Assembly (NCBI GenBank): GCA_951406725.2 | Contig: OX597815.1 | Span: forward strand, 129,394,001-129,458,000 | From: Octopus vulgaris | Taxonomy: Eukaryota | Length of the DNA stretch: 64,000 nt | Direction of reading: 5' to 3' | Part shown: in pieces, positions 12,226 to 55,016 of the stretch | Position numbering within the stretch: the stretch's first letter is position 1 | Layout of the letters: each line of letters begins with the position of its first letter | The notes under the pieces: model-generated | The model's database searches: none | Told to the model about the DNA's origin: nothing | What the model saw: only the letters and a program-made list of their open reading frames with translations | Program-made: the position numbers and the translations under genes

Positions 12226-12261
12226 CAGTACTGGTTTCAGTCATTGAGACTTTTTCAACTG
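12226..12261 (-). ncRNA. Minimal type I hammerhead-like motif in pLTR (U3-A8 core)
   Basis: Minus strand: CAG TTGAAAA AGTC-tcaat-GACT GAAA CCA GTA CTG. Confidence 0.6.
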
Positions 12262-12469
12262 TAAGTATGGAAAACAATTAAATTTTGGAAAAACTAAAAG
12301 AAAAGTTTTTTCAAAGAATATTTGTATAGTATTCAAATACAAATGGCATTTCTCATGTTTTTGCCTGTCTCTGTCTCTTGTGGGTTCAAGATTGTTGTGA
12401 ATTCTTGGTAGGGAAGAAGAAGAACTCCCACAATGAACTCCCACGTCGCATCAAAAAAGAATTCATGAT

Positions 12470-13690
12470 AGAAGGGCTAAAATTCATCCTGAAAAATAAC
12501 TACTTTGTCTTCAAAGACAACTTCTCTCAATAAAAATCGGAGACTGCGATGGGTATGTGAATGGCCCCCTCCTTTGCTAACCTAGTCATGGGATATCTAG
12601 ATGTCTTTATTGAAATGTTCTAGAAAAATACAGCAGCCCATTCTCCCTCTACATAGAAAATAACTGGAAGAGATACCTTGATGACTGTTTCATTGTTTGG
12701 CATGAAAATATAGAGAAACTTAAAGAATTCCAAGTACATATAAATGGACTTGACGTAAACATTCAATTCATGATGGAATATAGCCATCAACAACTTCCCT
12801 TCCTTGACATCCTCATTAAGAAATCTAACAATGTAATAGAAACTGATATATACTATAAGCCCATGGACAGTAATATCTACTGTTCAACTCATGCCACCCC
12901 AGACACACCAGAATGAATATCCCCTTCAACCTAGCAAAAAGGATATGTACTATTGTTTCTAATGCAAACTCCAGAGACACATGGCTACATGAACTAAAGG
13001 ATTAGCTCATCACCAGGAACTACCCACCTTCACTAATTGACATATGCTTTTGTGCCATTCAACTCAACATCTAGGAACTCAGACATCCCAAATTAAAGGA
13101 TTTACAACGAAAAGCCCTACCATACATCTCCACACACAACCCTCTTAATAATGAAGCCTTCGACACCATCCCTCAATACATTCCCCTGCTAAAAAAGGAC
13201 CACAGAATGAATTTAATCCTCCAAACACACACCATCATAAAAAGCAAGAGACAACCCAAATCTATGGAAAGTCTCCTAACACAAGCCCAAACACTCTCAA
13301 TAACAACACAGCAGCCCTCAGTAAAAAAATGCGGAAGACCCGACTGTGGGATATGCATCAATTTAATTGAGTGATCAGAGTTCTCCTTCAAACAGGGACA
13401 ATGTTTCACAGTGAAAAGCAACTTCACATGTGCTTCAGAAAACCTGATATATGCACTAACCTGCTCTGGGTAAATACATAGGCCAAACAAAAAACAGTCT
13501 ACGTAAAAGAATGGCTCTGCACAGATCCCAGATCAAAATTCCCCAAAACAGAAAATAGCATTCAGCTAACTCATCGATCCAAGCTTCAGAATTTTCCCCT
13601 CTACCAAATCAGTGACGATACAACCTGTAGCCAACGAATTAGTAAAGAGACTCTCTTTATTACAAAATACAGACCCCTTTTGTTTGCATC
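12470..13690 (+). pseudogene. Penelope-like RT + GIY-YIG endonuclease remnant (stops and frameshifts)
   Basis: Manual translation: FILKNNYFVF, TAMG..MAPSFANLVMGYL, WKRYLDDCFIVW (YLDD 12674-12685), LPFLDILI, TDIYYKP, SCHP, KCGRPDCGIC linker, NLIYALTC..KYIGQTKNSLRKRM. Confidence 0.9.
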
Positions 13691-14228
13691 TACAACAAAC
13701 GACATATCGCCTTAGAATAAACACAAATACACACGCAAATATTAAAAATGATACACTCAAGAGATTCCCAAGAATTCATTAAAAAACCGTCCCAATCACT
13801 GCTATAATCCATAAGGATCCACTTTTAGGTCACTAGACCATATTCCTACTTATTCTCCCTTCTCTTTCTCCTTCATCTTCTTCCTCTCTGCCACCTCCTT
13901 CCTAACTTTACCACTATTGCTGTTTAGAATAACACTTACGCAAATTTTATAAACAAAGCATTAAAAAAAATGTCTCAAGAATTCAATCACTACTACCATC
14001 CACAATGGGTCACTTTCGGGGCACTTGACCATTTAACATACTATTCTCATGGCACTCCCACATTCTTCTTCTTCCTTACCAAGAATTCACAATGACCTCC
14101 AACTCACAAGAGTAAACAAGAGACAGAGACAGGCAGAAACAAGGAAAATGCACTTTGTATTTGAATACTATACAAATATTCTTCAAAAAAAACTTTTTAA
14201 TTTTTCCAAAATTTGTTTTCCATACTTA

Positions 14229-14264
14229 CAGTTGAAAAAATCTTAATGACTGAAACCGGTACGG
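14229..14264 (+). ncRNA. Minimal type I hammerhead-like motif in pLTR (U3-A8 core, ACCGGT stem III)
   Basis: CAG TTGAAAA AATC-ttaat-GACT GAAA CCG GTA CGG; one mismatch each in stems I and II. Confidence 0.55.
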
Positions 14265-14347
14265 AAATGAATTTATAAAATTGTTTTAGCATTTTCTACA
14301 TTGACTTTTTTCCATATACATCAACTCATATGTTTCTTTTCAACCTT

Positions 14348-14358
14348 GTTTGTATGTA

Positions 14359-14423
<65 letters not shown>

Positions 14424-14646
14424 GTGTGTGGGGGTGATGTGTGTGTGTGGGGTGTATGTAGGTGTGTGGGGGGTGTATGTAGGTGTGTGTGGGGTGTATG
14501 TAGGTGTGTGTGGGGTGTATGTAGGTGTGTGGGGGGTGTATGTAGGTGTGTGTGGGGTGTATGTATGTATGTATGTATGTAGGTGTGTGTATGTATGTAT
14601 GTAGGTGTGTGTGTGTATGTATGTATGTAGGTGTGTGTGTGTGTGT
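14348..14646. repeat. (TG)n / TGTA / GGGG compound micro-minisatellite
   Basis: Directly visible. Confidence 0.9.
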
Positions 14647-15525
14647 CTTTATGCGTCTCTCATCTCCCATTATTTTTGTCAATCTAAAACTGTCTCTATT
14701 TGTCACCTTGTCATTCCCATTCACTCACTCACTCTCTTTCACAGTCTCTTTGTCACTCTGTCTCTGTCTGTTTGTCTGCCAGTTTGTCTATCTGTCTGGT
14801 TATTTGTTTCTGTCTCTTATTGAGCTCCTGTCAACTTTGACCAAACATGTCATCGAAGGCAATCCCACCATGACAGTAATGCCTTTTAGGTAGCTATCTA
14901 GGTGTACATTATTTAATGTGTCCAACTGTCTTTTAAGATGGTGAGGTATAATTTGAGGGAGATTTGGCTGCTGTACTTAGCAAGGTGAATGATTATATGG
15001 AGAACCCTTTGTTGGCTTGTTCCTCACAGTTATTGAAACTGCTGGAAATAGCAAGAGAATTTCCCTCATAATACACCTCTCTATCTTAAATAAATACAGA
15101 CAGATTGGATAATGTAATTCTAGCTATGCTTTGTCTGAAAACAGTTGGGATGATTGTGGTTGGAACTCTTCAAGCAGAGCTAACCCAGAGCAGAACAACA
15201 CCACCACCATCATTTCCACAACCGCTACCAACACTATCATCATCATCAATACCATTACCACAAAATCTAAATTCTAGATCAGTGTTAAGATTACGTACAC
15301 ACACTCATATGTGCAGAGACAAGATAATTGTGGTTGGAACTCATAGTTCCATTCAAGCAGAACTAACCCAGGGCAAAAGAAAACCATCGTTACCACCCCC
15401 AGCATCATCATTACCACCACTGTCCTGTGTCCACTTTACATAATGGCTTAAGTTGAATGGGTTCCTATTCTCCGAGATGTTTACAAATTGGTGATCACAA
15501 GGGAAATACAAACTCCATGCAGCCA

Positions 15526-15603
<78 letters not shown>

Positions 15604-15890
15604 AAATGTAGCAGGGTTCATTAGAATCTAGGTATTTTAACATGTAGGCGGTCTAGATAGGCCAGGTACTGAGCTTACAATATGCTGGAGCAAGTTAAAG
15701 TTCTTGGTTGCTGTATGCTGTAAGTATGCATAGGTACCCAATCCAATATAAACTGTAGATCCAACTCAAGGATGATTCCAAGTGAGACATTATAAAAGAA
15801 CAAAGGACATAAGTGGGGTTCAAAATTTTGAACCCCACTTGTGTTCTTATATCTCAATTAATGAATGCCAAAAGAACAAGAGTCACTCTC

Positions 15891-15975
15891 ATTAGCTTAC
15901 AGCTATTTCTGTTATAAGAAGCAGGAGTTGGAGCTGGGTACTTGTAAAACATCCTATAGCTTCCTCAGAGCCATT
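15891..15975 (-). ncRNA. Type I hammerhead-like motif with long stem II
   Basis: Minus strand: GGCT CTGAGGA [52 nt, AGCTATAGGA..TCTTATAACA] GAAA TAGCT GTA AGCT. Confidence 0.6.
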
Positions 15976-16490
15976 AAAATGAAGTGTATAGGATGTTGCA
16001 CAAGCACTTGACACTGTCACCAACTGTCATGACATTTCATTCGCAAACACTGTATAATCTGCCTTCACTCAGAAAGCTAAATTCTTTATTGCTACCAAAG
16101 ATTATATATCCCTAGTCTGGCTCCTATGCTATCAATATACCCACCTCTACTACTAATTATCTCAACAAGGTAAATGAAAGTTATCAACTACTTTTTGTGA
16201 GCCTTGTAAGTATTTGGTGTAATTTATTATGCTTGTACTGTTACTACTAACTGCTCCAGTACATCTATCACTTATAAAAATCTATGTTCACTGTCAGTCC
16301 AAATCTGGTCCCACTACACATCTTATACATACATAATCTACATTAGATATGCTGTATGGAATTTCTACCTGATACTTTCTCATATCAAGCACAGCATTCT
16401 TCTGATGATAGCAGGGTCCTGTCTTTCTTTTTTACTGAAATTTTAGTATTCTCCTAAGTTTAGTTGATTTTTTGTTTGATAAAAACCTCT

Positions 16491-16504
16491 CTGTTTAAAA
16501 GATG

Positions 16505-16536
<32 letters not shown>

Positions 16537-16634
16537 TTCACTGCTCAGTTCTTTATTAATCACTGAAATGCTGTTTAAAAGATGTATACATACACACATT
16601 CACTGCTCAGTTCTTTATTAATCACTGAAATGCT
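16491..16634. repeat. Tandem duplication (~65-80 bp, 2 copies)
   Basis: ctgtttaaaagatgtata(ca)n ttcactgctcagttctttattaatcactgaaatgct twice. Confidence 0.85.
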
Positions 16635-17064
16635 ATAAAGTCTCATCATAGTATGGCTGTGTGGTTAAGAAATTCCCTTCCTTTTGATTCAGCCTCACTG
16701 TGTGGCACACTGGGCAAGTGTCTTCTTCTGTAGCCCTGGGCCAGCCAAAACCTGAGTGTATTTGATTGCTGAAAACTGAAAGAAACTCTGTGTGTTTGTG
16801 TGTGTGCCTCTGTGCTTGTGTACATTTTCCACTTACTTTGCCTGGCATTCTTCTTGACACTTCTGTTAATAAAACTCCTTTTTTGCTTCATGCATATGAA
16901 AGCACGTGGAATAAGAAAACCTTTATTTGAAACCAGGGAATGGTTAGCATCAGGAAAAGCATCTGTAAAACAAATACTTCAGTAAGATATTTGTCTAACC
17001 TGTGATAGCATGACAAAATGGGTAGGTTTTATACAAAATGGAAAATTATAGTGTGTGGTGGGTA

Positions 17065-17293
17065 ACTGACACTTTCATTACCAACCTGGCCAAAACCGGC
17101 TCTGGCTCTGTAGTACAAATGTCTTGTTTTCATAAGTTTTGCATTAAAATATACCACCAAACCTTAGTCGCAATTTATGTTCCTAACACTAGCTTAATGA
17201 TAACTAAGTTATTTTACTAAATTCTTTGTTATATTTAAAATAATTGAATGAAACATAGAGCATCTCAAAATAAATACAGTAATGAAAGGGTTA
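17065..17293. mobile_element. piggyBac-like MITE (TTAA-CCCTTT ends)
   Basis: Left actttcattac, right gtaatgaaagggTTAA; related copies at 32546-34160 and 61239-63140. Confidence 0.6.
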
Positions 17294-17652
17294 AACAATT
17301 TACTCTGCAGTCTTGAAGGCTAATGATCAACCTTATAGTGTGGCACCTTGAGTAAGTGTATTCTACTATAATCTTGGGTTAATTTAAGCTTTATGAATGA
17401 AAACTGATGGACAAAAATTGTACGGAAGCCATGGTAGTTCTGTTTCAAATGTAGCACCAACCTTGTCCCACACCATGTCAGGTATTTGCCTGCCTGCCTA
17501 CTTGTTTGTCTGTCTTCCTATCTGTCTGTCTCTGTCTTCTATTCATCCACACATACACACACTATCACAGTATCTGCTCCTTGTGTTTAGATGTTTTTTT
17601 TTGAAATCACACAGTTGTCATTTCATCTTTCCATTTTCCTGCATAAATTTAA

Positions 17653-17815
17653 GCAGGAGTGGCTGTGTGGTAAGTAGCTTGTTTACCAACCACATGGTTC
17701 CGGGTTCAGTCCCACTACATGACACCTTGGGCAAGTGTCTCGCGCCAACCAAAGCCTTGTGAGTGGATTTGGTAGACGGAAACTGAAAGAAGCCTGTTGT
17801 GTGTGTGTGTGTGTA

Positions 17816-17861
<46 letters not shown>

Positions 17862-18064
17862 CATGTCTGTGTTCGCCCCCTTCCCCCAACATCACTTGAC
17901 AACTGATGCTGGTGTGTTTATGTCCCTGTAATCTCGTGGTTCAGCAAAAGAGACCAATAGAATAAGTACTAGGCTTACAAAGAATAAGTCGTGGGGTTGA
18001 TTTGCTCGACTAAAGGTGGTGCTCCAGCATGGCCGCAGTCAAATGACTGAAACAAATAAAAGAA
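17653..18064 (+). mobile_element. SINE family A, near full length
   Basis: gcaggagtggctgtgtggtaag...ggttcagtccc...gacaccttgggcaagtgtct...gactgaaacaaataaaag. Confidence 0.9.
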
Positions 18065-19679
18065 TGACTTAATATACTCAAGAATGTATTGCTCAAAGGC
18101 CCTCTTTAATGGGTTGGTTTAATTAATTTTCTGTGATTAGAAAAACAAAAATAATTAAACCCCAAGATTAAATTAATTGAAAGGACTGGCTCATTTTTTT
18201 TACTCCTAACTCCTGCACACCAACCTATGTTTAATTAGTAATTGTTTGCTATTTGGAAAATGTTTGATCATGTATTTATATGTTTATTAATTCATTTGCA
18301 ATTTGATGGAATTTCGTAACTGTCCAAACATTCAGCAAATGGGGAATGTTGACTGTTTGGATCAACAGATAAATATTTGTGAGACTCGATGAACTTAAAC
18401 AATTAAGATCTTCATTTTTCCTTTTTCTTTTTTTTCTTTTTTTTTTCACTTAAAACGATTCAGATCAAAAATATTTCCTTTTAACAATTTCTTGCTGCAA
18501 TTTCCAGGCGTGTGTGTATGTGTGCACATGTGTGTGTGTGTCTTTGTGCAATTGTGTATGCCTTTGTGCAATTCTGTGTGTTTTTGTGCACATGTGTGTT
18601 AGTGTGTGTTTGTGTATCTTTGTGTGTGTGTCTTTGTGTATGTGTGTGTTGTTTGTCCCTAACCACAGCTTGACAACTAACCAGTATTGGTTTGTTTGTT
18701 CCCCTATCCTAGCACTTTTGCAAAAGAGACTAATAGAATACATACCAAACTTTTAAAAAATAAGTACCAGAGTTGAATAACCTTTGGGTGTTTCCTATTA
18801 TCTCCACCTTCCCTCCTTAGATGCCTAGTAGAATATACTTTTAATTTCTGCTGGTAGATTTCTCTACCTCATTAATTTTTTTTCCTTTTGTTTTTTTGGA
18901 TTATATTCTACTTGAACTTTTCCTATGTTTTATTTTTTTTGCCATTCTTGTTGATAGATTGATTTGTTTCATTCACATGGCCATTCATGTGCAATCTGTT
19001 TCTGGAAAGTTATTAGCTGACAAAAATGAATTTGTCAAATGTGAAAATTCCAAAAATGGTCAATCAGTAATATACTGAAGATTCTGTAAATGTGTGAAAG
19101 ACTTCTAGAATAACAGAATTACCCTGAAGTAATGTCTATAATCCAAGGCCATACAACAAGAATGACAAAGATGAGTGTTAAATCTGTTATATAATGAGAG
19201 GTTTTGTTGTTCCTAGACACCAATTAAGGAGACCATAGATGACGTTAAGCAAATTTAATTTTTGATATTCAACAAAGCAGCAATTTTGTTTACTTTTTGA
19301 TCCAAAGTGTTTAAATGCAGTAATTTATTCCAATTATACTCCATTTAATGTGACATTGACTGAATGAACATCCACCATGAATATTTTGTTATTGTCAGCA
19401 TTGATATTTATTTGTGAAAAAAAATAGCAACATTAGTTGTAGGTTTCCATTGAGACAATAATTGTTTCTCTGCATTTCTGATGGTGATGGTGGCAAGAGA
19501 GTGTCTGTGGCTTGAACTTCAGTCACTATGTGCAAGTATTTTGCTGATGAAGGGTGAAAAATATGTGTTTATGTGTGTGTGCATATATGTATGTATGTTT
19601 GTGGATTGTATTGAACCACTTACACCTTTTATCATCTTTGCTTCACTCCTTTAATATTACCATTATCACTGTCATCATT

Positions 19680-20050
19680 GGTTTGAGCTTGCTCACATTC
19701 TCATAACTCCGATCCTCCACCCCTCTCTATTTTTCATAGTATGTGATATTTCCTCTCGATTAAAACCCAACATTTTCTCTTAACTGATCTATGTATCTCG
19801 TTGCACAGCAGCTAATGTGATTTCAACTGTCATGCTGTCCAAAATAAGGTCTCACTAACCAACTCTCTTACTTTTTGAGACATGCCCATCAAAGAAAATT
19901 CTTTCTCTAATGATGTCTGATACTTTAGGAGGCTTCTTGTACAATCTTTCTTTGGTAGTGTTTTTTCCAGGACCTATCCAAAATAGCATGAAGTGTGAGC
20001 ATTGTAGGTGCAGTCTAGCATAGTTTCAAGGCTTTTTGTTTGTGCCAGAT
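19680..20050 (-). mobile_element. Old RTE-type LINE C-terminal remnant (a different family)
   Basis: Minus-strand reading with frameshifts: KALETMLDCTY..AILDRSWKKH..LYKKPPKVSDIIRER..FDGH..RYIDQLRENVG..MKNREGWR. Confidence 0.65.
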
Positions 20051-20673
20051 GGAAGAGACAAAAAAAAAACCCCACAAATTCACCAAACAACTTATTAGTG
20101 ATTTTGGTTAATTACTATTAATTGCAAATAAGCAGTCCATCATCATTTAATGCTCATGTTTTCAAACATGCATGTGTTTGTTGAGGCAGATTTTCTATGA
20201 CTGGATGCTCTTCCTGACACCTGCCAATACCTGTTTGCAAGCAAGATATTTCTCATGGTCAGACATGTTTTCCACAGAAGACTGAAAATCAAACAACCTT
20301 GCTTGTATGAGGATGCTCATTTGCAACTATCACACAGGTTAAGACAAGGGTACAAATGCATACATACAAAACATTTTTCCATTTTTACTTTTTTTTTAGT
20401 TTCAATTCTCTCACAATTCTTTGGTTGGCTTGGAGTCATAGTTGCCATGCAATGGGACTGAACTCAAGGCCACATAGTTGGAAAGCAACCTGCTTAACCA
20501 CAAGTGCTATAGACCTTACCTGTACCTAGCAATGCTTGTGTGGTTTCAAAATTCTAATTCACAATCCCACCATCAAACATATACTGAAAGAATACCAATC
20601 CAGTGGTGTTTTTAATTAATCTAGTCACATGTTTATACAGTTGACACTGTTAATCATGAATTTACAAGACCAA

Positions 20674-21097
20674 TCATCATCGTTGTTTAACATCCGCTTT
20701 CCATGCTAGCATGGGTTGGATGATTTGACTGAGGACTGGCAAACCAGATGGCTGCACCAGGCTCCAATCTGATCTGGCAGAGCTTCTACAGCTGGATGCC
20801 CTTCCCAATGCCAACCACTCTGAGAGTGTAGTGGGTGTTTTTACATGCCACCGGCATGAGGGCCAGTCAGGCGGTACTAGCAACAGCCACGCTCAAATGG
20901 TGTTTTTATGTGCCACCTGCACAGAAGCCAGTCCAGTGGTACTGGCAACGATCTCACTCAAATGTTTTTTCACGTGCCACCAGCACAAGTGCCAGTAAGG
21001 TGACACTGGTAACAATCACGCTCGAATGGTACTTTTTACATGCCACCGGCACAGAAGCCAGTTAGCTGCTCTGGCAGCAATCACGCTCAGATGGTGT
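20674..21097 (-). mobile_element. RTE 3'-tail element with about 5 internal ~55-bp repeats
   Basis: catcatcgttgtttaacatccgctttccatgctagc...; repeated tttt(a)catgccaccggca...gccagt...ggcaac..cacgctcaaatggtg. Confidence 0.85.
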
Positions 21098-23062
21098 GGT
21101 CAATGGTAGCTTGAAACAACTCTTCTACTTTTTACTTGATGACTGTATAACAAGACCAACAGACACATTGAATTCATTCATCTGTCTTTCTCATTCTTTT
21201 TATGTTTCATGCAGAAAGCTTTTTACTAACATCTCTTTTACATCTTTTCCTGAACTGTCATCCTCCTGTAACTCTTTCATAGTAATGCTTACATTTTAAT
21301 TACTAAATTGTATTTGGACATAAAACTGTACTAATATTCTATTTTCTCCACCCACTTGATATCCAGAGGGTCAACATACCTCATCACCACTATTTACCCA
21401 CTCTGGACCTTTTTTTTTTTTCTTTTTTTTTCATGCTTTAACCCCATCTCTTTGGGTTCATAGTCTTTCGAACTGCATAGTAACTTCATTAGTACTGGTG
21501 ACATGAAAAGGCACCCACTACAAGCAGTAAATTAGTTTGTATTAAGAAGGGTATCCAGTTGTAGAAACCATGTCAAAGTAGACACGAAACATGATGCAGT
21601 CCTTGGGTCCCTTCGATGCTGTCAAATAGTCCAGATCATGCCAACATAGAACATGATGATGATACCAAATTACCTGAAATTATCCCTTGTTCTACAAAAC
21701 AAATTCTCTATTTTAAAATTACCTTAAAATCTTCATTGATATTCAAGATTACTATATGTTCCAAATACCAGCTTAAAGATGTGTTATTTTAATAAACTCA
21801 TTTTTTCCAAAATTTATTGAAAGACTTTGTATTTTAGCAAAAACATAGTAATGAAAGGCCTTACTTATTGTCATTCTTTTTAATCCATCAAATACAATAT
21901 TCCTTTTCATTAAATTATACAAAGCTTTCTTGCAAATCCTGATCATTACATTGTGTGAGCATGTGGTGTGTGCACGTGCATCTTTATTCAGCCCCACTCC
22001 ATGCTTACAAATATTTGTACAGACGTTTTGACAGGAATGTTCTAGAAGACAGTTAGGATGAGGAACGTAACCTTTTGGTTGTCTAATTTCAAACTTTTCA
22101 GTATTTTCTGAACAGCTGTCAAGTTTTGCTTTTCAGAATTTGACTTCTTTCATAACCCAAATCATAATCTTTTGAATCCAAACCCCATTATTATTGTAAT
22201 CTAATATTTTTTTGACAATAAAATAAAATATCTATCTATCTATCTATCTTGTTCTCTTTTTATATCTATCCATCTATCTATCTATCCACCCAACCACCCA
22301 CAAAATGAGGAAAATATTAGCCAACACAATGTCTCTTTGTTATATTATGAGTTACAACACATTCTGAAATAGGTTAGGTAGACTGGAAGCTAATTATTTT
22401 CAGATAAAATAATTAGATATAAAGAAAAAAAGAAAGCCATTCAATTGTTTTCCAAGATTACATGTGACATATAACTGCAAATTTTATGTGGTGAGTCCAA
22501 CTTCCTTTGAACACTGTACGTACTGAATGCATATTATAAATTTATATGGTCTTAACGAGGAGAGGTTTTTTTTTATCATTTCTGCTCCCAGCAACCAAAT
22601 CTTCAGTTATCATGGTAAACATTTCACTTCTGACCCACATGCCCTGAGAAAAGAATGAAAACCAAATTTCATTTCCCTTTTCCTATAAATATAAACTCTT
22701 GTTGTGACCTTTATAAGAATTGTCAAATGGTAAAAATTATAGATCATTTATTTGTTCATTTGTTTTTACTTGTTTTTTTTCATGCTAGCATGGGTTAGAC
22801 AAATGGATTCATAAGGTATTGTTTTACAGGCAGATACCCTTTCTGTCATTAACCCTTTCTTGTTTTTCATGTAAGGGATCTCTTATTTCACATGTCTTTA
22901 AAGGCACAAAGCCAGCAGATGATGTGTTAACAGGAAAAATAACTATTACAACTTATAGCTTGGGTTTATTGCAAATGTAAGCAAACACATATGTACATGT
23001 ATAAATACACATATAGCATGTGTACACTTGTGCAATTGCATGCACACATGTACATAAATACA

Positions 23063-26011: not shown

Positions 26012-27107
26012 TTAATCCTTTAGCATTTAAACTTACCATATCTGTCCCAAATATTCTGTTTTATGTTCAAACCTCTCACTCCTACCCTACAATGTCATTC
26101 TAAAGAAAAACAGTCACATCATTGATGTATGGAAGGTTTGAGATAATGCATGATGAAGCCATTTCTGCCTAAAATGCTAAATACTACGAAATTTTTGACA
26201 GCACATTAAAAAAAATTTTTTTTCAACATTTGAAGTGGAGATTGGTATTTATGTAATTACCAATATGGCTTCAGTATGTAGCAATTCTTACTTGGAAGAT
26301 TTTATACTTAATGACATACAAAATGTAGGGAAAAAATAGAAAATACCAGTGACTTGTCTTTCGGTGAAACAGATTTAGATGTTTCTGAATTCTTGCCCAT
26401 TGAAGATGAGCATTTTGATAGCAGAAGCGATGGCTCTCAGGATACCATTTAAAATATTATAGTGACACAATTAAGCAATAAAATACCAGTACATAAACCT
26501 GATTTTATTGAAAAAAATGTAATTGTAAATCATTGATTCTGAAACACCTGCTGATAATTCTCCTAAGCATGATTAATTCAAAACAAGGTGATTTTTCCAC
26601 TCTCGCCTCCCCCATCTCCCAACACCATCATACCACACCACACATCATATCACAACACCATCACGTACACATCAGCACTGACCACTTCCCAGACCCACAT
26701 TTTCACATCCATATATAGACACACGCACACATCAAGATCACCAGCCCTCTTCCACATGCACATACAAACTCTCTTATACACATGCACACACACCTTCGTT
26801 TTGGGATCACTGCTACTTTATTATCTCCCCTTCTTCCTCGCTCTCTTGTGTGACTCTTCTGTTCAGCATTCGCCATGATAGATCACTAGCAACTATACAT
26901 TCTTTATTTTCTCTCATTGTTTCTTTCTGTGGAAGAGCGTAGGCTCAAAATGTTAAAGACTTTTGCACTTCCCGAGCGTTATACTAATACATTTGTTCAT
27001 CTGTTTGTTGTCTACACCACCTGTCTTCGTCTTTTGTTTTTTTGTGAATTCTTTCCTAAATATATAAGCATTACATTTAACAGAGTAATCTAAATTCTAA
27101 AGAGTTA
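26012..27107. mobile_element. Probable piggyBac-like non-autonomous element with internal insertions
   Basis: Ends ttaatcctttagcattta / taaattctaaagagttaa are imperfect TIRs with TTAA; internal acidic coding-like remnant (~26345-26450). Confidence 0.45.
26600..27065 (+). mobile_element. PLE-like 3' fragment with degenerate hammerhead-like motif (26922-26959)
   Basis: TCTTT CTGTGGAA GAGC-gtag-GCTC AAAA TG TT AAAGA (CpG-type decay of CGAAACG); ends in (TA)n. Confidence 0.45.
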
Positions 27108-33176: not shown

Positions 33177-33253
33177 CTCTGGACCAATTGGTTTTTGATC
33201 ATCTTTTAGCAAGTCAAGGGGAACTCACAGGTCTGATTTTCTTCAGCAAGGTC
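33177..33253 (-). ncRNA. Degenerate type I hammerhead-like motif (GAAA mutated to AAAA) in a ~490-bp insert
   Basis: Minus strand: CCTTG CTGAAGA [AAATCAG..TGATCA] AAAA CCAATTGG TC CAGAG. Confidence 0.5.
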
Positions 33254-37763: not shown

Positions 37764-38217
37764 ATATTAATAGTTATTCGCCAAGCTAACATGGCAGTCC
37801 AATCGATTAACTTCAAGAGGCCATCGCCTCTAGCTAGCTATGTGACACACAAACCTGTGTCTGAGAGATTTAGAAATATTGATATTTCTATTTTCTAAAA
37901 CCAGTGGATGTATTCCACTGAATTTTGGTAAATAATCCTTCGAACAGACAGTCAGCACATTGATAAGGGGCAACTACCCCGAAACTAGTCTGTGGATGCC
38001 TACCCTGCAAAGGGAAGCTGCTGACCTCTGTTTGAAGGTTATAATGGACACAGGTTTTATGTGTCACCTAGCTAGCTAGAGGCGATGGCCTCTTGGAGCT
38101 AATCAACGGCAGCATTCGTCCTATTTTCGTGGTCTGCCATGTTAGCTTGGCGATAACTATTAATATCCAGTACCGCCGCCATAGTCTCCTTTAGAGAGAT
38201 TGAGAAATATTGATATA
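37764..38217 (+). mobile_element. Retrozyme-like / PLE-dependent non-autonomous element: inverted 5' segment + 331-nt unit + 23-nt terminal redundancy
   Basis: 37764-37861 is the inverse of 38047-38166; gagagatt(t/g)agaaatattgatat at 37863 and 38194; internal hammerhead; flanked by (TA)n. Confidence 0.75.
37956..37994 (+). ncRNA. Minimal type I hammerhead ribozyme (U3-A8 core)
   Basis: CACA TTGATAA GGGG-caacta-CCCC GAAA CTA GTC TGTG; predicted cleavage after 37990; palindromic ACTAGT stem III. Confidence 0.8.
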
Positions 38218-44203: not shown

Positions 44204-44221
44204 TATATATATATATATAAT

Positions 44222-44385
44222 ATAAGACAAGGTAGAAAATGCTAAAATAATTTTATCATGTACATTTTAATACTGGTTTCTGTCTTTTAGACTTGTTCAA
44301 CTAAGAGTAAAATAAGAAAAACAATTAAATTGGAGAAAAAAAAATTTAAATGTTTTGTAAATATTTCCATTGTCTTCAAATAGTC
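44222..44385 (-). mobile_element. Solo PLE pLTR fragment (same family as 12171-12424) with hammerhead-like remnant
   Basis: caaggtagaaaatgctaaaataattttat...tactggtttctgtcttttagacttgttcaact aligns with 12186-12261. Confidence 0.75.
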
Positions 44386-45982: not shown

Positions 45983-46262
45983 TCATCATCGTTTAACATC
46001 TGTTTTCCATGCTAGCATGGGTTGGACAGTTCGACCAGGGTCTGGGAAGCCAGGAGGCTGCACCAGGCTCCAGTCTGATCTGGCAGTGTTTCTACATCTG
46101 GATGCCCTTCCTAGTGCCAACCACTCCGTGGTGCTTTTTATGTGCCACCAGCACAGGTGCCAGGCGAGGCTGGCAACGGCCACAATCAGTTGGGGCTTTT
46201 TACGTGTCACCGGCACAGAAACCAGTTAAGGCGGTGCTGACATTGGCCATGTTTGGATGGTA
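45983..46262 (-). mobile_element. RTE 3'-tail element
   Basis: catcatcgtttaacatctgttttccatgctagcatgggttggac... Confidence 0.85.
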
Positions 46263-46336
46263 CTTATATATATATATATATAGTTATATGTACATTGTAA
46301 TTTACTTGAAGCATTGTAGAATGTATTTGTTTGTGT

Positions 46337-46531
46337 GTGCTGAAAAGTTCCTGGCTTTGGGTAAAAGGAAATACAAGAGGATCGGTTAATTATGATTTTA
46401 TTCAACATATTCCCCTCTCAGATTCACACACTTCAGTTTTTCTAAACCCTGTAAAAGAACTTGGAAGGTTGGGCCTCTAACCAGGCCTTTCACAATACCC
46501 TTAAAGCCAGGAACTTTTCAACTCCCCCTTG
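46337..46531. mobile_element. mariner-type MITE
   Basis: TIRs gtgctgaaaagttcctggcttt / aaagccaggaacttttcaactccccct. Confidence 0.75.
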
Positions 46532-47014
46532 TGTGTGTGTGTGTGTGTGTGTGTGTATCATCATTCAACTATTTTTATCTTAACTTTTGAATAAAAATAC
46601 CCTTTCACAATGAGGGAATGGGGACAGGAGAATATATCTGAATTCAAACTGAATATGGTAGTAATATCATATGTGGACAAAGTGAGATCAAATATGATAT
46701 TGTATGAGAACAAGGAACAGTGGGGAATGGGTAGATTATAACCACATGTTGTTGAAGTGTAGAGAAAATGGGATCAAATGCTGCACTGTATGGGTGTTGG
46801 ATATCTTCTCCATGTTGTTACTCTTTAAGACGAAGTATTTTATCATAAAATAATCTGATCATTAAATCTTGAAGGTGAAAATTTAATATTTGTTTACATT
46901 TAATATTTTCCCAAAAACATTGGTGCAGCTTTCTTCATTACAGTTTTATATAAATATTTGTCTATTTTAACAGGTATTCACTTATATTTAAACATAATTG
47001 TTTATAAGTTGAAA

Positions 47015-47053
<39 letters not shown>

Positions 47054-47229
47054 TAAAAATTTATTTATACATAAATATATTTATTTAAACATTTTTATAT
47101 CTAAGCATACATATATTTTGTTTAAACATACATATTTCTGTCTCCCCCATCTCTCTCTCTCTCTACACTCACACACAGTTTTTGGTCTCGCACACTTAAG
47201 CCAATTCTTCTTACATTTAGTTTTTTCTC

Positions 47230-48680
47230 TCAGTTTACTTGTATTCCATCATTTATGCATACTAACATTACATGTACATTAAATCATGCTTGCCTCATTT
47301 CTTTCTAGTCTTTGCAAATCCTCTGCATACATGGCCCATGTCTTACTACCATGCTATATTGCTCTTTCTATACGAACATCATACTATCTATAGTCACTCA
47401 AAGGAGAAACCTTCAGTAGAAGTAAGAGCTCCCTGAATTTTCCCCACCCAATTTACTTTGGTTTCCTGTGCACCCACCTTCACTGATAATTAGATCACTG
47501 TACTATGAAGAAAAATTCTCTCACCTTATCTTGAGAATGACTTTGAAAAGGACTCCTCAATCATTGAAGCTATGATTTCATTCGTTCCAGCTTTTAAAGA
47601 AAGCTCATGGAACATTCCTGCATGGAATTTACTTTAGAAAGGAAGCATTTGTGCCAGGCCTGGGACTTGCAAGCTGGAGTACAGTGTTTTGAAGCTGCAG
47701 AATTTATCTTTTAGTTGTTCCTGTCATCAGATTGTGGGCATGCTGGAGCATTGCCTTGAACAAATAACACTCAACATTGCCATGTTGAGTATTATTTACA
47801 GTCAGCTTTGTATTGCTTGATTCTTCCTGCAAAGACCTGGAATATTAATGACTTGATCTTAACTTTATCAGAAACTAGAATGTGCAGAGACTCTTATTGC
47901 AGGTCTGTTTTAACAAACCCCACTCAATCTCAAAAGAGGCCTCTCAAATTTCCCACTTCTTCTCCTGATAGTCAGGTTCCTCAGTTGAGCCCTTCCATCC
48001 TTGGAGCATGACCCACTCTGTCACAATCATCTAGGTAATGAAAGTTGTTAATCACTATGGAGTCTGCTGAGAATTGGAAGAAATTTATGTATTTTTTACT
48101 TTTAACTATTCTTGTATATTTGTTTCATATGACGTCTGCCTCCTTTCTTAGCCTACCTGGGAACCCATTATACTCTTTTGTATATCCATAGTTTAGGAAG
48201 GATACACCATATGGAATTTCTACATACCCTTTGTCTGCATATCAAGCTTAGCGATATCCTTGATTGTAGTAGTTTTCTTTTTGGTGTTTACTAACACTTC
48301 AGTTTTTGCTAACTTTACTTTGAAGCCTCTCAATTCTAGACTTTACTCTCAGGGCTAGAATTTCTCTAAATCTTCTCTAGATTCAGCTTCAAGAACTAGG
48401 TCATCAGTATACTGTTATGGTTTAATTTATTATGTTTATTATAAGAATTGGACTGAGGATTGAGCCTTGTTGAACCTCTGCCTACATGTTAAATTCCTGA
48501 CAGAATTCACTGCTCTCAACTGGCTGACTGTGCCTCAGTACAGGGCTTGTATGACCCTCACAAATCATTCATCTATCTCTATTTCCCTTAGCAATCACTG
48601 GATAACAGAATATGGAACTGTATCAATGCTTACTCCAGATTACTTTTAGCTAAGTACTTCCCCTGCAGTTATTTCACTTG
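47230..48680 (-). mobile_element. Old fragmented RTE LINE (same family type as 10100)
   Basis: Minus strand: YTDDLVLEAESREDLEKF..LELRGFKVKLAKTEVLV (~48290-48411) and IGWGKFRELL...HGSKTWA (~47330-47455). Confidence 0.7.
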
Positions 48681-49620
48681 GAAAATGACGTCAGTAGTAC
48701 ATCTTAGATGCACTTTTGTATATTTTTCTGTTGTATGCTTTGAAAATATTTACAATTTGAAGCAGAAAACAAGTATCAAAGTAATATGAAATCTGATTAT
48801 GTAATCTTTTAAAGATGAAGAAACGAATATTGTTTATTTATCTTTATCACATTCCTGCTTCGAAGAATTTTGGTACATGTTATTTCAATTTCATTTTTTT
48901 TCCCCTCCACCTAACTCGAAATATTGCTAATTGCTAGATTTACTGTAACATCTACGTTGCTGTTTCAAATTCTGTTTGTTCAGCTGAGATGTACTTTGAA
49001 AGCAAACAAAACTTGTTTGAAATGTCTTCTCCATTTAAATGTAATTGATCACTGAAAATATGAATTATCACATTTGATAATATATCATATACTCATGCAT
49101 GAAGAAGTCACTTTGGTAATATATATAATTTAAACAAAAATGAGCTAAGAGAAATAGGTCAGAGTAGTCAAGGCATGTATTTGAACAGCGTAGACAAATA
49201 CAGGTATATGAAATACCATACAACATATAAAATAATTTATTAAATTTATCTCTGTCTCCTCAGTTTAATTTTGCTTAAATTATGCATATTAAGTAGGCCA
49301 TAAATGTGTTCTACTCCTTTTTGTATAAGTCTGAGTCCCTTGGCTATTGAAGATACTGTCAGACCATTGTTGTACTGATGATGGTTATTAAGCATATGAC
49401 GGTCATCTAATTTCCAATTCTTTTTCTTAATGACATCTCAACTTTGGAGAATTCTTGATTCTATCTACTCATCTCAAGTAGAGCAGATCTTAATTTCCAT
49501 TCAATAATTATAACACATCCTCTACAGGCACAGATAATTTTAATAAATCAAGAATCTTTTGTATGGTATTTAATTTACCTGTATTTATCTGTTTTAGTTG
49601 TGTGTGTGTGTGATCATCAT

Positions 49621-49825
49621 CTGGCACACTGGGTGAAATGCTTGACGGTATTTCGTCTGCTACTCTGTTCTGAGTTCAAATTCCGCCGAGGCTGACTATA
49701 CCTTTCATCCTTTCGGGGTCAATTAAATAAATACCAGTTACGCACTGGGGTCAATGTAATCGACTTAATCCCTTTGTCTGTCCTTGTTTGTCCACTCTGT
49801 TTAGCCCCTTGTGGGCAATAAATAA
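49621..49825 (+). mobile_element. SINE family B
   Basis: gttctgagttcaaattccgccgaggctgac...tttcatcctttcggggtc. Confidence 0.85.
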
Positions 49826-51094
49826 ATATCATCTAACATCCATTTTCTATGCTGGCATGGGTTGGATGGTTTGACAGTAGCAGACTAACTGGAGATTTAT
49901 ACCAGGCTCCAAATATGTTTTGGTGTGGTTTCTACTGGTGGATGCCATTCCAGTGTTATGAGTGCTTTATACGTGGCACTGATACAGGTGCTCTTTATGC
50001 AGAATGTCATTTCTAGCATATAGTGTGACTATTCAGAAGTTTTCTCATTTTCTCATATCTCTAACATTGAAAAGATATAGTATTCTTTTAAGCCCTTTGC
50101 ATTTTGGATACCGGCTTCATTTATATGCAAACTATATAATAGACATATAAACAGTGCTGATTTAGTGATTTCTCCATAAATTGCAAACATGAAGACCTTT
50201 AATCATTTTTTGAACCTTATTGGATTCTCATCAAAGGTGTCTACATTTTTTTTATGCTATATGTACTTCTCTTATCTTAGGTTTTTTTTTTATATTTCTA
50301 TTACTCTTTAGCTTCTGTAACTATATAGTACATTGAAATATCTAAATAAATAAATGAATAAAATAGAATATAAATAAATTTAAAAAAATAAAAAAAAACA
50401 TGTCATAAAAGAGGATAAGTATGACTAAGAAACCAGTAGCTGGAGTTATATTTAATTTTAGTCTGCTTTCAGGTAATCCAGTTGCTGTTGAGTCTGAAAA
50501 TAGTTTTGCACTCTTGTATTATTTCCATGCTTTTCCTTATTCCCCATTTCTACTTTAAAAAATTGCTTGGTTACAGCATACATAAAACACAGACACACAT
50601 AGAAAAAAAAAAGGTGGATCAGTAATTTTCTTTATTCTCTTGTGTGACTTTTTCCCTTCAACATTTTTGCTTTTAATTATAATTCATGTTTGAGATATCA
50701 GTTGTGTCAGAGAAGGGATCAAGCAGATTATATATATATATATGTATATATATATTATCTTGTTATAGACACAAGCATAGCTTTGTGGTTTAGGTGTTTG
50801 CTTCACAACTGTATGCTTTCAAGTTCAGTCCCACTGTGTGGCATCTTGGGCAAGTGTGTCTTCTGCCTTTTGAGTGAAATTAGGTCATTAAAATTTAATC
50901 CCCACCATGGGCACAACACATCTCAGGTGACCTTTTAGTACATTACTGACCTTGATATACATTACTCTAATGTAAAACTAGGGATATTTTCCCCAGTGAC
51001 AATAGGTTACTAGTGGCTAGTCTGTAATATTTTGATATGGTGTTGATTAATGCTATAACGACTATTTGCTGTAATGCTTATTTATTTATCTCTT

Positions 51095-51352
51095 ATCTTG
51101 TTTCAGTCATTAGACTGTGGTCATGCTGGGGCATTGCCTTGGTGAATTTTTAGTTGAATCAACCCCAGTACTTTTTTTTTAACATGGTACTTATTCTATC
51201 AGTACCATTTTCAGAACTGCTATGTTATGAAGGTGTAAACACATCAACATTGGTTGTCAAGAGGTGGTTGGGGACAGACAGATACAAAGACACATTGACT
51301 GATCTTAGAACCATGTAGTTGAGAAGCAGACTTCTTACTACATAGCCACGCC
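51095..51352 (-). mobile_element. SINE family A, internally deleted
   Basis: cttgtttcagtcattagactgtggtcatgctggggc...accatgtagttgagaagc. Confidence 0.7.
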
Positions 51353-51630
51353 TACACACACACACACTCACTTGTAGCTTACCATAGAAAGTTTGATTTC
51401 ATATGCAAACTAAACCTTTGTGAAACACAATCATTATTTTGATGCTAAACACCAGTTATTGTTGCACTTCTTCTGAACACTCCATCAGCTTAGGTACTCA
51501 ATGAAGCTAAATATACCAACAACCTAATTGGATTGCCAGTCTTGAGTTCAAATCTGCAGATAGCATATTGTTGTATTTGGGCACCTCACTTAATTTTTTA
51601 TGGCTCAGTCAAGTTAGCTGTTGATAGCAT

Positions 51631-51726
51631 ATGCTAGGCTGCCCAGGAATGGATGCTAGGCTGCCCGGGAATGGATGCTAGGCTGCCCAGGAATGGATGC
51701 TAGGCTGCCCCGGGAATGGATGCTAG
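51631..51726. repeat. 22-bp tandem repeat x4 (atgctaggctgcccaggaatgg)
   Basis: Directly visible, head-to-tail with no spacers. Confidence 0.9.
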
Positions 51727-51747
51727 AGATGTTAGCTTGATGCTACT

Positions 51748-52048
51748 GTGTTGTTGTTTGTTCCTTCTTGAACCATGCCTGGCTCATCAGGGCTGGTTTC
51801 CCAGTTTCTTTGGCATATAGGTTCCCCACCTGGACAAAACACTGGTCTGTTGGAGGAGAGCTGCTAGATGCAGGAGAAAAGAGTTAGAGAAAGTTGTGGT
51901 GAAAGAATTAGAAGTTTACCATTACCTTCTGCCAGAGCCGCATGGAGCTTAGGTATTTCGCTCATAAACACACACATCACTCAGTCTGAGATTCGAACAT
52001 GAGATCCCTTGACTGCAAGTCCACTGCACTAACCACTAGGCCATGTGC
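51748..52048 (-). mobile_element. tRNA-derived SINE, family D
   Basis: Minus-strand head gcacatggcctagtggttagtg...gttcgaatctcagac; (caa)n-type tail. Confidence 0.7.
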
Positions 52049-52816
52049 TACTAGAGGTAGTTATATTTTTTTGATCTCTTACAGGTACCTGGTGACTGTA
52101 TTGGGTTTAATGACAAAGTAGTGCATCTGATAACTGGTGAAGGGGGTCAATGGTTTGTAGCCTGATGCTGCATTGTGTTCATGATCAAAGCCCTTTTATT
52201 TTCACTATCATCATCATCATCAGCTATAAATAATCTGTACAAGTATTGCTCTCATCTGCAACAAGTGGAATCACTGTATAATTGTTTTGTTAGCTTGTGT
52301 TTCTGAGTTTATAATCATCAAAGTGTATCTTGGCCAAGATAGCATCGTTCATGTCATGACTCATTTTCAACCAATTCTAACACCATTGGTGAAAGAAATG
52401 ATGAAGATGAGTGTGGAAGGAAATAGAGGTTGGGGAGGAATGAGTGAGAGGGGTTTTGAGGATAAAGGAAAATGGAAAATGTCATGAGCAACTCTCGCTT
52501 CACTTTAGCAGGGAAAGTGGCCTTAAAAGAAACATTTGTTTAGGTTGACTGATCCCCATTAAACTTTATCTCAAACCATGTGTATAGTACAAGTAAAATA
52601 TGCTTCTGTGGTTAAGTTTATTTTGTAGTCATATGATTTTGGATTGAGTCCTATTGTGCAACCTTTTAGACAAATATCTTCTATTATAGCCCTAGGCCAA
52701 CCAAACCTATGCAAGTGAATTTGTGAGACAGAGACTGAAAAGCATGTTCTAGTGTTTTCATATATACATTATTTATCATCCTATTCTGTGTTGGCATTGA
52801 CTGGATAACTTTACAG

Positions 52817-53081
52817 CAGTGGTTCCCAAACATTTTCAGGCTGCTACCCCCTTAATACCCAGGCCACATTCCAAGCACCCCCACTCCAGCTAACTATCAC
52901 AAGTATAGACTTCTTTCTGAAGCAAATTCAAAGCAACGATTTCACAAATAAAACTTAACTTAATGAACTAATTTTGTTGTTTTTACATGAAACACTACCC
53001 CATTATCACCCCACTTCAATGTTCCCTTCGAACTTTTCACCACCACCAGTAGGGCAATACTGCCCACTTTGGGAACCACTG
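52817..53081. mobile_element. hAT (Buster/Charlie-type) MITE with 8-bp TSD
   Basis: TIRs CAGTGGTTCCCAAA / TTTGGGAACCACTG; TSD CTTTACAG at 52809-52816 and 53082-53089. Confidence 0.92.
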
Positions 53082-53233
53082 CTTTACAGGATCCAATACA
53101 TCAGAGGACTGCATCAAACTCCAATTTCTATTTTGGTATGGTTTCTATGACTGCCCTTCTTAATACCAACCACCTTATAACATATATAATCTCAAAAAAG
53201 GAGATCGGGAAACATATTTAGTCTTATTTATTC

Positions 53234-53329
53234 ACTATTGCATGTGTTTCATTTGCTAATAGGAGTTACAGAATTATTCATGTAAGAGAAACACACAAGA
53301 TCACTCCTACTAGAAATTCTTCAGATAGT
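53234..53329 (-). ncRNA. Type I hammerhead-like motif with long stem II (cleavage triplet decayed)
   Basis: Minus strand: ACTAT CTGAAGA [ATTTcTAGTAGGAGT..ACTCCTATTAGcAAAT, 67 nt] GAAA CACATG CA ATAGT; lies within a (TA)-flanked insert ~53182-53410. Confidence 0.65.
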
Positions 53330-54057
53330 AGTACTGGAATAAACAGATGTACTTCAACAAAATGCAGCATGAATTTTAACCCTATCAACATACTAATATA
53401 TATATATATAATCTTAGAAGGATAGCAGGATCCTTAAACAGATGCTATATGAGTAACTTGTTAAGGACTGTCAAGTCCCCATTAATGGCCTTTTTGACTG
53501 AAGACTTTGATGGTAGCTGCACCAGATATCAGACAAGGTGTAGGTGCTTCTATCATAGTTAAGAAACAATAAACTCTTATAATATGGTCATTTAAGGCTA
53601 ATGAAACAAATTACTTAGTGACTCCACTTCTTACAGGAGAAAGTTGTAGCTATACATTATTTATAGCTGAACTGATTGTGAAAACTAAATGTCTTCACCA
53701 TGGACAGTCCAGCATGTGTATGGAAACCACTGACGAATTCACCAGGAATCAGTAGACATAAGTGTACAATCTTTTAATTTTAGAATGACAGTTATAAACA
53801 TATACCAGAAGCAAAGTACTCTATAGTTTGTTTTTATTTCATGATACATGTGACTTCTTGGAGACAAATTGGTAGTCTTGTTAACATTGGATAGAATGTC
53901 TGCACTGTGTGTTCAGATTCTACTAATGCCAACTTTGCTTTTCATCTTTTTGAGGGTAGGCAGAAGATGATGTTAATAAAATAGTACGAATCTAGAGCTG
54001 TGGATTGATGGGAGTGTTAGAGAATTGGGTGGATTTCCACAAATTGTATATGTTCCA

Positions 54058-54267
54058 TGGTGGTGCCATGTAAAAACACCTGTGCGACACCACATAAAGG
54101 CACCCACGTGGTGCCACGTAAAAGCACCCAGCACACACTGTGGTTGGCATTGAGAAGGGCATCTTGCCATAGAAACCATGCCAGATCAAACTGGAGTCTA
54201 GTGCAGCTTGCCAGCTCTAGTCAAACCTTCCAACCCATGCTAGCACTGACAACGGACATTAAATGAT

Positions 54268-54268
<1 letters not shown>
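54058..54268 (+). mobile_element. RTE 3'-tail element
   Basis: gccacgtaaaagcaccc...ggttggcattgagaagggcatc...ggacattaaatgat. Confidence 0.8.
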
Positions 54269-54303
<35 letters not shown>

Positions 54304-54435
54304 ATATTTCAGCAAAACAATTTAGATTCAAAAGAATATGGTACTTAGATGCACCAGAATTTTTTTATGGTATTAACCATAAAATGATGTGGGGTGATTA
54401 TAACCAAAAAATAAGCAACAAGAATGGATCAGTAG

Positions 54436-54521
54436 TTTAGTACAATTGTTTCATACTATAAACATTTTATTAAAGCTGCAAATATTACAGCAAATATAAT
54501 GTCAAGTACTCTTCAGCTAAA
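54436..54521 (-). ncRNA. Type I hammerhead ribozyme, intact core
   Basis: Reverse-complement copy of 54931-55016. Confidence 0.8.
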
Positions 54522-54930
54522 TTTCATATAGGTTTTCCAAACATCTTAGAGAGTGTAAATATCCTTATAAAGTTATAGAAGTGAGTGCCAGGAACTTGAA
54601 GTAAGATTCCAAGCAGACTATATATGTTTTCCAACAATACAAAGTTATTAAATTAATTATTGACATCTCAGAGAAGATGTGGATATAAATTTCAAGAAAC
54701 ATGAGGAAAGATGCCGATCAGACCACGGTTAAGTTCGCATCTAACTGTTATCCACATCTTTATGAGTAGATTTACCTTCTCTGAGATGTCAATAATTAAT
54801 TTAATAACTTTGTATTGTTGGAAAACATATATAGTCTGCTTGGAATCTTATTTCAAGTTCCTGGAACTCACTTCTATAACTTTATAAGGATATTTACACT
54901 CTCTAAGATGTTTGGAAAACCTATATGAAA

Positions 54931-55016
54931 TTTAGCTGAAGAGTACTTGACATTATATTTGCTGTAATATTTGCAGCTTTAATAAAATGTTTGTAGTATG
55001 AAACAATTGTACTAAA
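54931..55016 (+). ncRNA. Type I hammerhead ribozyme, intact core, long stem II
   Basis: TTTAG CTGAAGA [GTACT..AGTAT, 57 nt] GAAA CAATT GTA CTAAA; predicted cleavage after 55011. Confidence 0.82.

What the first reader, a model, noticed from the sequence alone, without database searches (positions are those of the whole stretch)
12226..55016. Hammerhead ribozyme collection: each family has its own palindromic stem III
Seen: nine hammerhead-like motifs (12.2, 14.2, 15.9, 26.9, 33.2, 38.0, 53.3, 54.5, 55.0 kb) plus a remnant at 44.3 kb, with apparently unrelated flanks. Stem III regions are different palindromes: ACCGGT, ACTAGT, ACAATTGT, ACCAATTGGT, and near-palindromes ATAGCTGT and ACACATGC. 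Known: minimal PLE/retrozyme hammerheads with palindromic stem III can cleave as dimers. Inference: each palindrome may be a family-specific pairing code, so that only like copies activate each other. The density implies a very large self-cleaving RNA repertoire in this genome, able to cut any host pre-mRNA spanning the region.
Basis: partly seen in the sequence, partly recalled or inferred. Interest (0 to 1): 0.8.

Follow-up and report, generated by a model that had tools for sequence, protein, structure and literature searches.

The report
Penelope retrotransposon hammerhead ribozyme relics
These are mostly decayed copies of the small self-cleaving RNA motif that Penelope-type retrotransposons are known to carry at their ends and likely use as dimers; the palindromes are shared between families rather than being a private code, but the genome's commonest such family carries an unusual A6U core that may still work.

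Summary
All ten motifs are real minimal type I hammerheads, but they are seven repeat families and eight insertions: 12.2/14.2 kb are the inverted ends of one truncated Penelope element (RT + GIY-YIG between them) and 54.5/55.0 kb are one 278-nt inverted repeat. Each family has hundreds to thousands of candidate copies. Palindromic stem III is real and general (74 of 100 listed 8-mers, 6% by chance), as published for Penelope-like elements. It is not a family-unique code: ACAATTGT alone has 1,865 matches outside its window family (control 15), 8-mers are shared more than uniform expectation, and single lineages switch palindrome. Predicted like-with-like pairing comes from stems I and III together. 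Only 3 of 10 sites are intact, no strand carries two intact like copies, the intact pair is buried in its own antisense arm, and copies decay neutrally after insertion, so cutting of host pre-mRNA is unlikely. The one surprise: the most abundant family (17,383 exact matches) has A6U fixed while N7 and H17 vary as in a working core. Cleavage was not testable.

The parts
12229..12258 (-). Family A hammerhead C3..H17 (U3-A8 core); stem III broken to ACCAGT; in the inverted 5' copy of a Penelope insertion
   Evidence: inverted arm 12164-12424 vs 14063-14323, 83%
12432..13682 (+). 5'-truncated, frame-broken Penelope-like ORF: RT C-terminal half, linker with CxxxxCxxC, GIY-YIG endonuclease
   Evidence: tblastn to P0002 44-60% identity, E 5e-95; P0002 carries RVT_1 and GIY-YIG
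14232..14261 (+). Family A hammerhead in the sense 3' terminal repeat; ACCGGT intact but stem II (G10.1>A) and stem I broken
15898..15968 (-). Family B hammerhead; ATAGCTGT is a decayed ACAGCTGT; stem II has a mismatch
26927..26954 (+). Family C hammerhead with lineage-wide A6U core (CUGUNGA) and ACGT stem III; this copy has lost G12 and the palindrome
33182..33246 (-). Family D hammerhead, ACCAATTGGT; this copy has lost G12
37960..37990 (+). Family E hammerhead (U3-A8 core, ACTAGT); intact core and stems, upstream deletion relative to family
44271..44300 (-). Family A remnant; core, stem I and palindrome broken
53239..53324 (-). Family F hammerhead; ACACATGC, U16.1>C, decayed from ACACGTGT-type
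54399..55053 (.). One short family G insertion: 278-nt inverted repeat, 99% complementary, 99-nt spacer
54441..54516 (-). Family G hammerhead, intact, ACAATTGT (left arm)
54936..55011 (+). Family G hammerhead, intact, ACAATTGT (right arm)

Best explanation
The ten sites are terminal-repeat fragments of seven dispersed repeat families, shown for three and likely for all to be Penelope-like retrotransposons, each carrying a minimal hammerhead that likely cleaves the element's own tandem transcript as a dimer and then decays neutrally once inserted. Shown: family membership, inverted-pair layout, RT/GIY-YIG linkage (A, C, G), palindromy, neutral decay of copies, depletion of inherited core changes. 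Inferred: in a tandem precursor two like copies swap strands so that stems I and III both form between molecules; any AC..GT palindrome serves, so palindromes drift by double changes and recur in unrelated families; predicted preference for like partners is a by-product of ordinary two-arm hammerhead recognition, not a selected address code. The window's copies are predicted to be inert in read-through RNA.
For: Hundreds to thousands of first-look candidates per family (440, 389, 2856, 577, 1138, 1161, 2017 for A-G). GIY-YIG in sense upstream of the ribozyme in 6 of 30 A loci, 2 of 30 C loci and 1 of 30 G loci; inverted partners in 0-9 of 30 loci per family, the known Penelope layout (bioRxiv 2021.04.23.441226, passages). 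Palindromic inner 4-mer in 74 of the first 100 listed matches (1 in 16 by chance; 12 of 16 possible types) and inner 2-mer in 57 of 100 (1 in 4; all 4 types), counted by eye. Monomer stem III costs +2.4 to +6.0 kcal/mol for A, B, E, F, G while homoduplexes give -4.8 to -11.1. Private mutation rate, non-CpG: core 28/1757, palindrome 20/1334, flank 359/20425 (p 0.70, 0.59); inherited changes 1 in core vs 176 in flanks, p 3e-4. Sharing: 1,865 ACAATTGT matches with short stem II, which excludes family G (control 15); 18 of 120 pairs of 8-mer clusters share a palindrome vs 7.5 under uniform draw. Published: PMC4209133 describes the same motif class, palindromes, U3-A8 variant, opposite-strand pairs and weak dimer activity.
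Against: No RT or GIY-YIG was found within 1.5 kb in any of 30 loci for each of B, D (sense), E, F, so their Penelope membership rests on motif and layout. No full tandem source element was recovered. The palindrome showed no significant depletion of inherited changes (6 events, p 0.39). For 6-mers sharing was 1 of 10 pairs vs 2.5 expected, and one ACGCGT variant was left out of the representative set by my filter. 0 of 42 ordered pairs of window families match in both helices and only 12 of 596 in the wider set, so like-with-like preference is predicted to be real. Family D can form a 3-bp monomer stem III (-0.9 kcal/mol). The 30 loci per family are the best matches to the window copy, a biased sample.
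Confidence: 0.85

Rival explanations
1. Palindromes diversify under selection as a self/non-self code, so that co-active sister families avoid cleaving or being cleaved by each other.
For: Seven of seven window families differ; double changes that keep the palindrome occur inside lineages: ACTAGT 21, ACATGT 2, ACGCGT 1 in cluster F3, and a G relative (L278) has ACGATCGT with two double changes in stem I. Cross-duplexes of the seven palindromes are mostly far weaker than homoduplexes.
Against: Sharing of 8-mers exceeds uniform expectation and 12 of 44 ordered pairs that share a palindrome also cross-pair 3 or more bp in stem I; at least six other stem II types use ACCGGT (by eye). Proximity in a tandem transcript already supplies the partner.
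Confidence: 0.1
2. Solo genomic copies are an active repertoire that cuts host pre-mRNA and has been kept for that.
For: About 14 strict intact motifs per Mb in the sample, roughly 40,000 by extrapolation; 3 intact sites in the window.
Against: Core and palindrome mutate at the flank rate after insertion; 7 of 10 window sites broken; no two intact like copies on one strand; antisense arm precedes and buries the G ribozyme on either strand; low in vitro activity even as dimers (PMC4209133).
Confidence: 0.04
3. Some families (B, D, E, F, or the A6U family C) are non-autonomous derivatives in which the hammerhead no longer cleaves and persists as a protein-binding end signal.
For: No ORF near B, D, E, F copies; family C multiplied most despite a change at A6, where changes give low activity (PMC3088659, passages); its stem II loop is as invariant as its core; Naiad elements multiply without hammerheads (bioRxiv 2021.04.23.441226, passages).
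Against: In the U6 lineage N7 takes all four bases (30/15/12/10 of 67) and H17 is U, A or C but never G (35/29/3/0), the pattern catalysis allows; GIY-YIG remnants lie upstream of C copies.
Confidence: 0.25

Closest known systems
Minimal hammerheads of metazoan Penelope-like elements (Cervera and de la Pena 2014, PMC4209133)
   Same: Type I layout, short stem I, palindromic stem III, U3-A8 variant, extra base before stem II, many families per genome, mostly solo copies, opposite-strand pairs a few hundred bp apart, location in terminal repeats of RT + GIY-YIG elements.
   Different: Palindromes here reach 8-10 nt; stem II loops reach 50-60 nt; family C has A6U, outside their consensus CUGANGAH. 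No octopus row in the 2 supplement files searched (one file not searchable).
PLE-associated dimeric hammerhead variants (Lunse, Weinberg, Breaker, RNA Biol 14:1499)
   Same: By its title and the review PMC6765202: small stem III variants tied to Penelope-like elements that cleave as dimers.
   Different: Paper not held; I could not check whether it covers heterodimers, octopods or A6U.
Non-LTR retrozymes of animals (PMC7229834)
   Same: Type I hammerheads in thousands to 126,247 copies per genome; dimer-dependent forms with palindromic loop 3 in axolotl.
   Different: Retrozymes are 150-450 bp tandem arrays with canonical ribozymes; here direct partners were seen in 0-3 of 30 loci per family.
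A6C core variant of phage Bcep176 (PMC3088659, PMC7151607)
   Same: Natural change at core position 6.
   Different: A single phage ribozyme with C6, slow in Mg2+ and favoured by Mn2+; here U6, fixed in a lineage of tens of thousands of copies and untested.

Membership tests
PLE minimal hammerhead | Core CUGANGA...GAAA or the U3-A8 covariant | tested here: met
   Commonest form in families A, E (U3-A8: 27/30, 25/30) and B, D, F, G
PLE minimal hammerhead (family C only) | A at core position 6 | tested here: not met
   U6 in 96 of the first 100 listed of 17,383 matches (by eye); family C is filed as a variant
PLE minimal hammerhead | Palindromic positions 15.1-16.1 including loop 3 | tested here: met
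   A 23/30, B 15/30, C 12/30, D 25/30, E 26/30, G 29/30; F 0/30 in the column count but intact in L202 on a second copy; 74/100 genome listing
PLE minimal hammerhead | Short stem I (3-6 bp) and NUH cleavage triplet | tested here: met
   Self stem I 3-7 bp in 25 of 25 representatives, partly by descriptor design; H17 not G in 205 of 210 family copies or better
PLE minimal hammerhead | Unpaired base before stem II and G10.1-C11.1 pair | tested here: inconclusive
   Both seen in A, B, C; E has G-C without extra base; G has G-U
Endonuclease-bearing Penelope-like element | RT followed by C-terminal GIY-YIG upstream of the ribozyme, same strand (families A, C, G) | tested here: met
   A: RT and GIY-YIG in window and 5 more loci; C and G: GIY-YIG part only
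Endonuclease-bearing Penelope-like element | Same, families B, D, E, F | tested here: inconclusive
   0 of 30 loci each within 1.5 kb; copies are short truncations
Endonuclease-bearing Penelope-like element | Tandem or inverted pseudo-LTR arrangement | tested here: met
   Inverted ends at 12.2/14.2 and 54.5/55.0; 0-9 of 30 loci per family with inverted partner
PLE minimal hammerhead | Self-cleavage as a dimer | not testable with these tools
   Needs an assay; only contigs were available for RNA runs
Non-LTR retrozyme | Head-to-tail 150-450 bp arrays with canonical hammerhead | tested here: not met
   Direct partner in 0 (A, B, F, G), 1 (C), 3 (D), 2 (E, one locus seen twice) of 30 loci; no Rfam hammerhead hit

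The most novel reading that the evidence does not exclude
The most successful Penelope-like lineage in this genome runs on a hammerhead with A6U, a core change not found in the papers searched, kept through several waves of amplification while N7 and H17 varied within catalytic rules; it would be an active, deliberately slow or differently ion-dependent natural core that standard searches miss, and sister families may have diverged in stems I and III so as not to cross-cleave.
Probability: 0.35. Interest if true: 0.55.

Novelty: new member of a known kind. Interest (0 to 1): 0.3.

Why it matters
As given, the finding re-describes a published class in a new, ribozyme-rich genome. Its use is as a test bed: dozens of natural families with matched and mismatched palindromes make homodimer-versus-heterodimer specificity directly testable, which I did not find addressed in the held literature. 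The A6U lineage, if active, widens the natural hammerhead core and means descriptor counts miss the largest family here; if inactive, it shows that these elements can multiply without cleavage, bearing on the open question of what Penelope hammerheads are for.

Tried and rejected
Rfam scan: no hammerhead family, only microsatellite-driven miRNA hits. A strict CTGANGA..GAAA regex missed six of the ten sites. A weak Sec5 hit at 8064-8336 (E 0.003) was rejected: the family's genomic matches lie on C20. Pfam on 120 further unmasked frames of the 166 listed found nothing, so no host gene is shown, which does not exclude an intron. RNA runs: no RNA holder listed; four guessed-RNA contig sets laid on 52.5-56.4 kb cannot show ends or strand, so they are used neither for nor against. 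Earlier findings: none held. Retrozyme reading rejected for lack of arrays. 'Unusual density' rejected. In one search the family D representative carries a private stem I change and scores 0 with itself; the family's common arms pair 6 bp and do not alter the cross result. Loci for could not be cut, so stem I was not examined for those matches and their tallies are by eye on the first 100 rows (start of C1).
Full report
Setting. The window is G000:C2:129394001-129458000 of a 2.8 Gb animal genome; the named homologs of its retroelement come from an octopod. It is about 35% G+C and rich in microsatellites and short repeats.

Observation. All ten sites are present and read as stem I - core - stem II - GAAA - palindrome - H - stem I. 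A descriptor gives 3 strict palindromic hits in the window versus 0.0 in 20 shuffles, and 17 in 120 evenly spaced 10-kb stretches (1.2 Mb) versus 0, 0, 0 in three shuffles. Rfam misses them. Searching G000 with each site gave 389-2,856 first-look candidates and 30 loci per family. Profiles from these place the ten sites in seven families: A (12.2 minus, 14.2 plus, 44.3 minus), B 15.9, C 26.9, D 33.2, E 38.0, F 53.3, G (54.5 minus, 55.0 plus). The 12.2 and 14.2 sites are 83% inverted arms around a broken ORF at 12432-13682 matching an RT + GIY-YIG protein: one truncated Penelope insertion with an inverted 5' copy. The G pair is one 278-nt inverted repeat. So the flanks are not all unrelated and there are eight insertions.

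What they are. GIY-YIG coding sequence lies upstream in sense in 6 of 30 A loci, 2 of 30 C loci and 1 of 30 G loci, none for B, D, E, F within 1.5 kb. PMC4209133 (parts 1-2 of 4 read, supplement searched) describes this class: minimal hammerheads in Penelope terminal repeats, many families per genome, palindromic stem III, a U3-A8 variant, opposite-strand pairs 100-700 bp apart, no activity as monomers and low activity as dimers. Families A and E carry U3-A8 (27 and 25 of 30). PMC6765202, PMC7229834, PMC3088659, PMC7151607 and bioRxiv 2021.04.23.441226 were seen as passages only. Lunse et al. was not held.

Palindromes. Within families the palindrome is the commonest form: A 23, B 15, C 12, D 25, E 26, G 29 of 30; F has decayed through its CpG. 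Genome-wide, a pattern that leaves the inner four bases free has 18,763 matches (reversed control 1,711); 74 of the first 100 are palindromic, using 12 of 16 types (by eye). The 6-mer pattern has 7,939 (control 3,344), 57 of 100 palindromic, all four types (by eye). Monomer stem III is unfavourable for A, B, E, F and G, cannot close for C, and is marginal for D; homoduplexes are favourable. Palindromy is thus selected, as the dimer model predicts.

Is it a family code? No, not as stated. ACAATTGT with a short stem II, which excludes family G, has 1,865 matches (control 15) from visibly different stem II types. Among 23 clusters from all DNA held, ACAGCTGT occurs in 5, and ACAATTGT, ACATATGT and ACGT in 3 each; 18 of 120 pairs of 8-mer representatives share a palindrome against 7.5 under a uniform draw, though 6-mers gave 1 of 10 against 2.5 and some sharing may be old common descent. 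One lineage holds ACTAGT, ACATGT and ACGCGT. By the geometry of a double hammerhead (inference), stem I also forms between the two molecules, so recognition uses both arms. On that basis 0 of 42 ordered pairs of window families and 12 of 596 wider pairs are cross-compatible. Like-with-like preference is therefore predicted, but as a by-product; selection for exclusivity is not shown.

Can they cut host RNA? Unlikely. Seven of ten copies have lost G12, U16.1, a stem or the palindrome. The intact ones are E and G on plus and G on minus, so no strand has two intact like copies. On either strand the antisense arm is transcribed before the G ribozyme, and a fold pairs 85-86 of its 86 nt to that arm. 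Across 7 x 29 copies, private changes hit core (28/1757), palindrome (20/1334) and flanks (359/20425) equally, while inherited changes avoid the core (1 vs 176, p 3e-4) but not significantly the palindrome (6, p 0.39): selection acts on source elements, not on inserted copies. No host exon was found. Density is not special: 3 hits from 2 insertions versus about 0.9 expected; the sample extrapolates to roughly 40,000 intact motifs, within the published range (about 3,300 in Schistosoma mansoni, 9,000 in Xenopus tropicalis per PMC4209133; 126,247 in axolotl per PMC7229834).

The unexpected part. Family C is the most abundant of the seven (34 of 46 profile hits in the sample) with 17,383 exact matches to stem II plus GAAACGT, control 0. 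In the first 100, position 6 is U in 96, A in 2, C in 1, G in 1, and N7 is U 39, A 25, C 22, G 10 (by eye). Among 67 aligned U6 copies N7 takes all four bases and H17 is U, A or C, never G, while the other core positions stay fixed apart from CpG decay; a sister clade of 16 copies has canonical A6 (tree supports rough, two A6 rows nest among U6). The stem II loop and many flank columns are also invariant, so the evidence is moderate. Searches for a natural A6U found none; A6C is known, slow in Mg2+ and favoured by Mn2+ (PMC3088659, PMC7151607). Unseen supplements and the unread Lunse paper may bear on this.

Verdict. Real motifs of a known class; the pairing-code idea survives only in a weak, two-arm form; the host-cutting idea is not supported; the A6U lineage is worth one assay. 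Interest 0.3.

Noticed in passing
window 26927-26954 and genome-wide: Family C: A6U hammerhead core fixed in the most abundant family, N7 and H17 free; canonical A6 sister clade exists.
   Followed up: partly
window 10061-12170: RTE-like LINE fragment with a 504-aa open RT frame bearing a PHD-like insert, ending in GAT repeats directly against the family A arm; the 44.3 kb family A remnant also abuts such a tail at about 44.2 kb.
   Followed up: no
listings: Near-palindromes ACGATTGT and ACGTGT recur; they stay self-complementary through G-U pairs and could be stepping stones between palindromes, or simple CpG decay.
   Followed up: no
L187, L200, L205-L208: A family F subgroup sits as inverted pairs about 1.2-1.4 kb apart around a mariner-like stretch (label from recall), with ACATGTGC stem III shared by 10 of 30 copies: likely copied as part of another element.
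   Followed up: no
G000:C1:20002278-20004542: Seven identical short hammerheads (ACCGGT) about 360 bp apart, two minus then five plus: a retrozyme-like or tandem terminal-repeat array.
   Followed up: no
window 55267-55312: A very abundant short repeat dominates the laid contigs by orders of magnitude; one of several SINE-like families in the window.
   Followed up: no
window 15803-15848: 46-nt near-perfect palindrome just downstream of the family B ribozyme.
   Followed up: no
L224:8376-9998, L275:3507-5784: Long, less decayed relatives of the family A ORF in the random sample.
   Followed up: no
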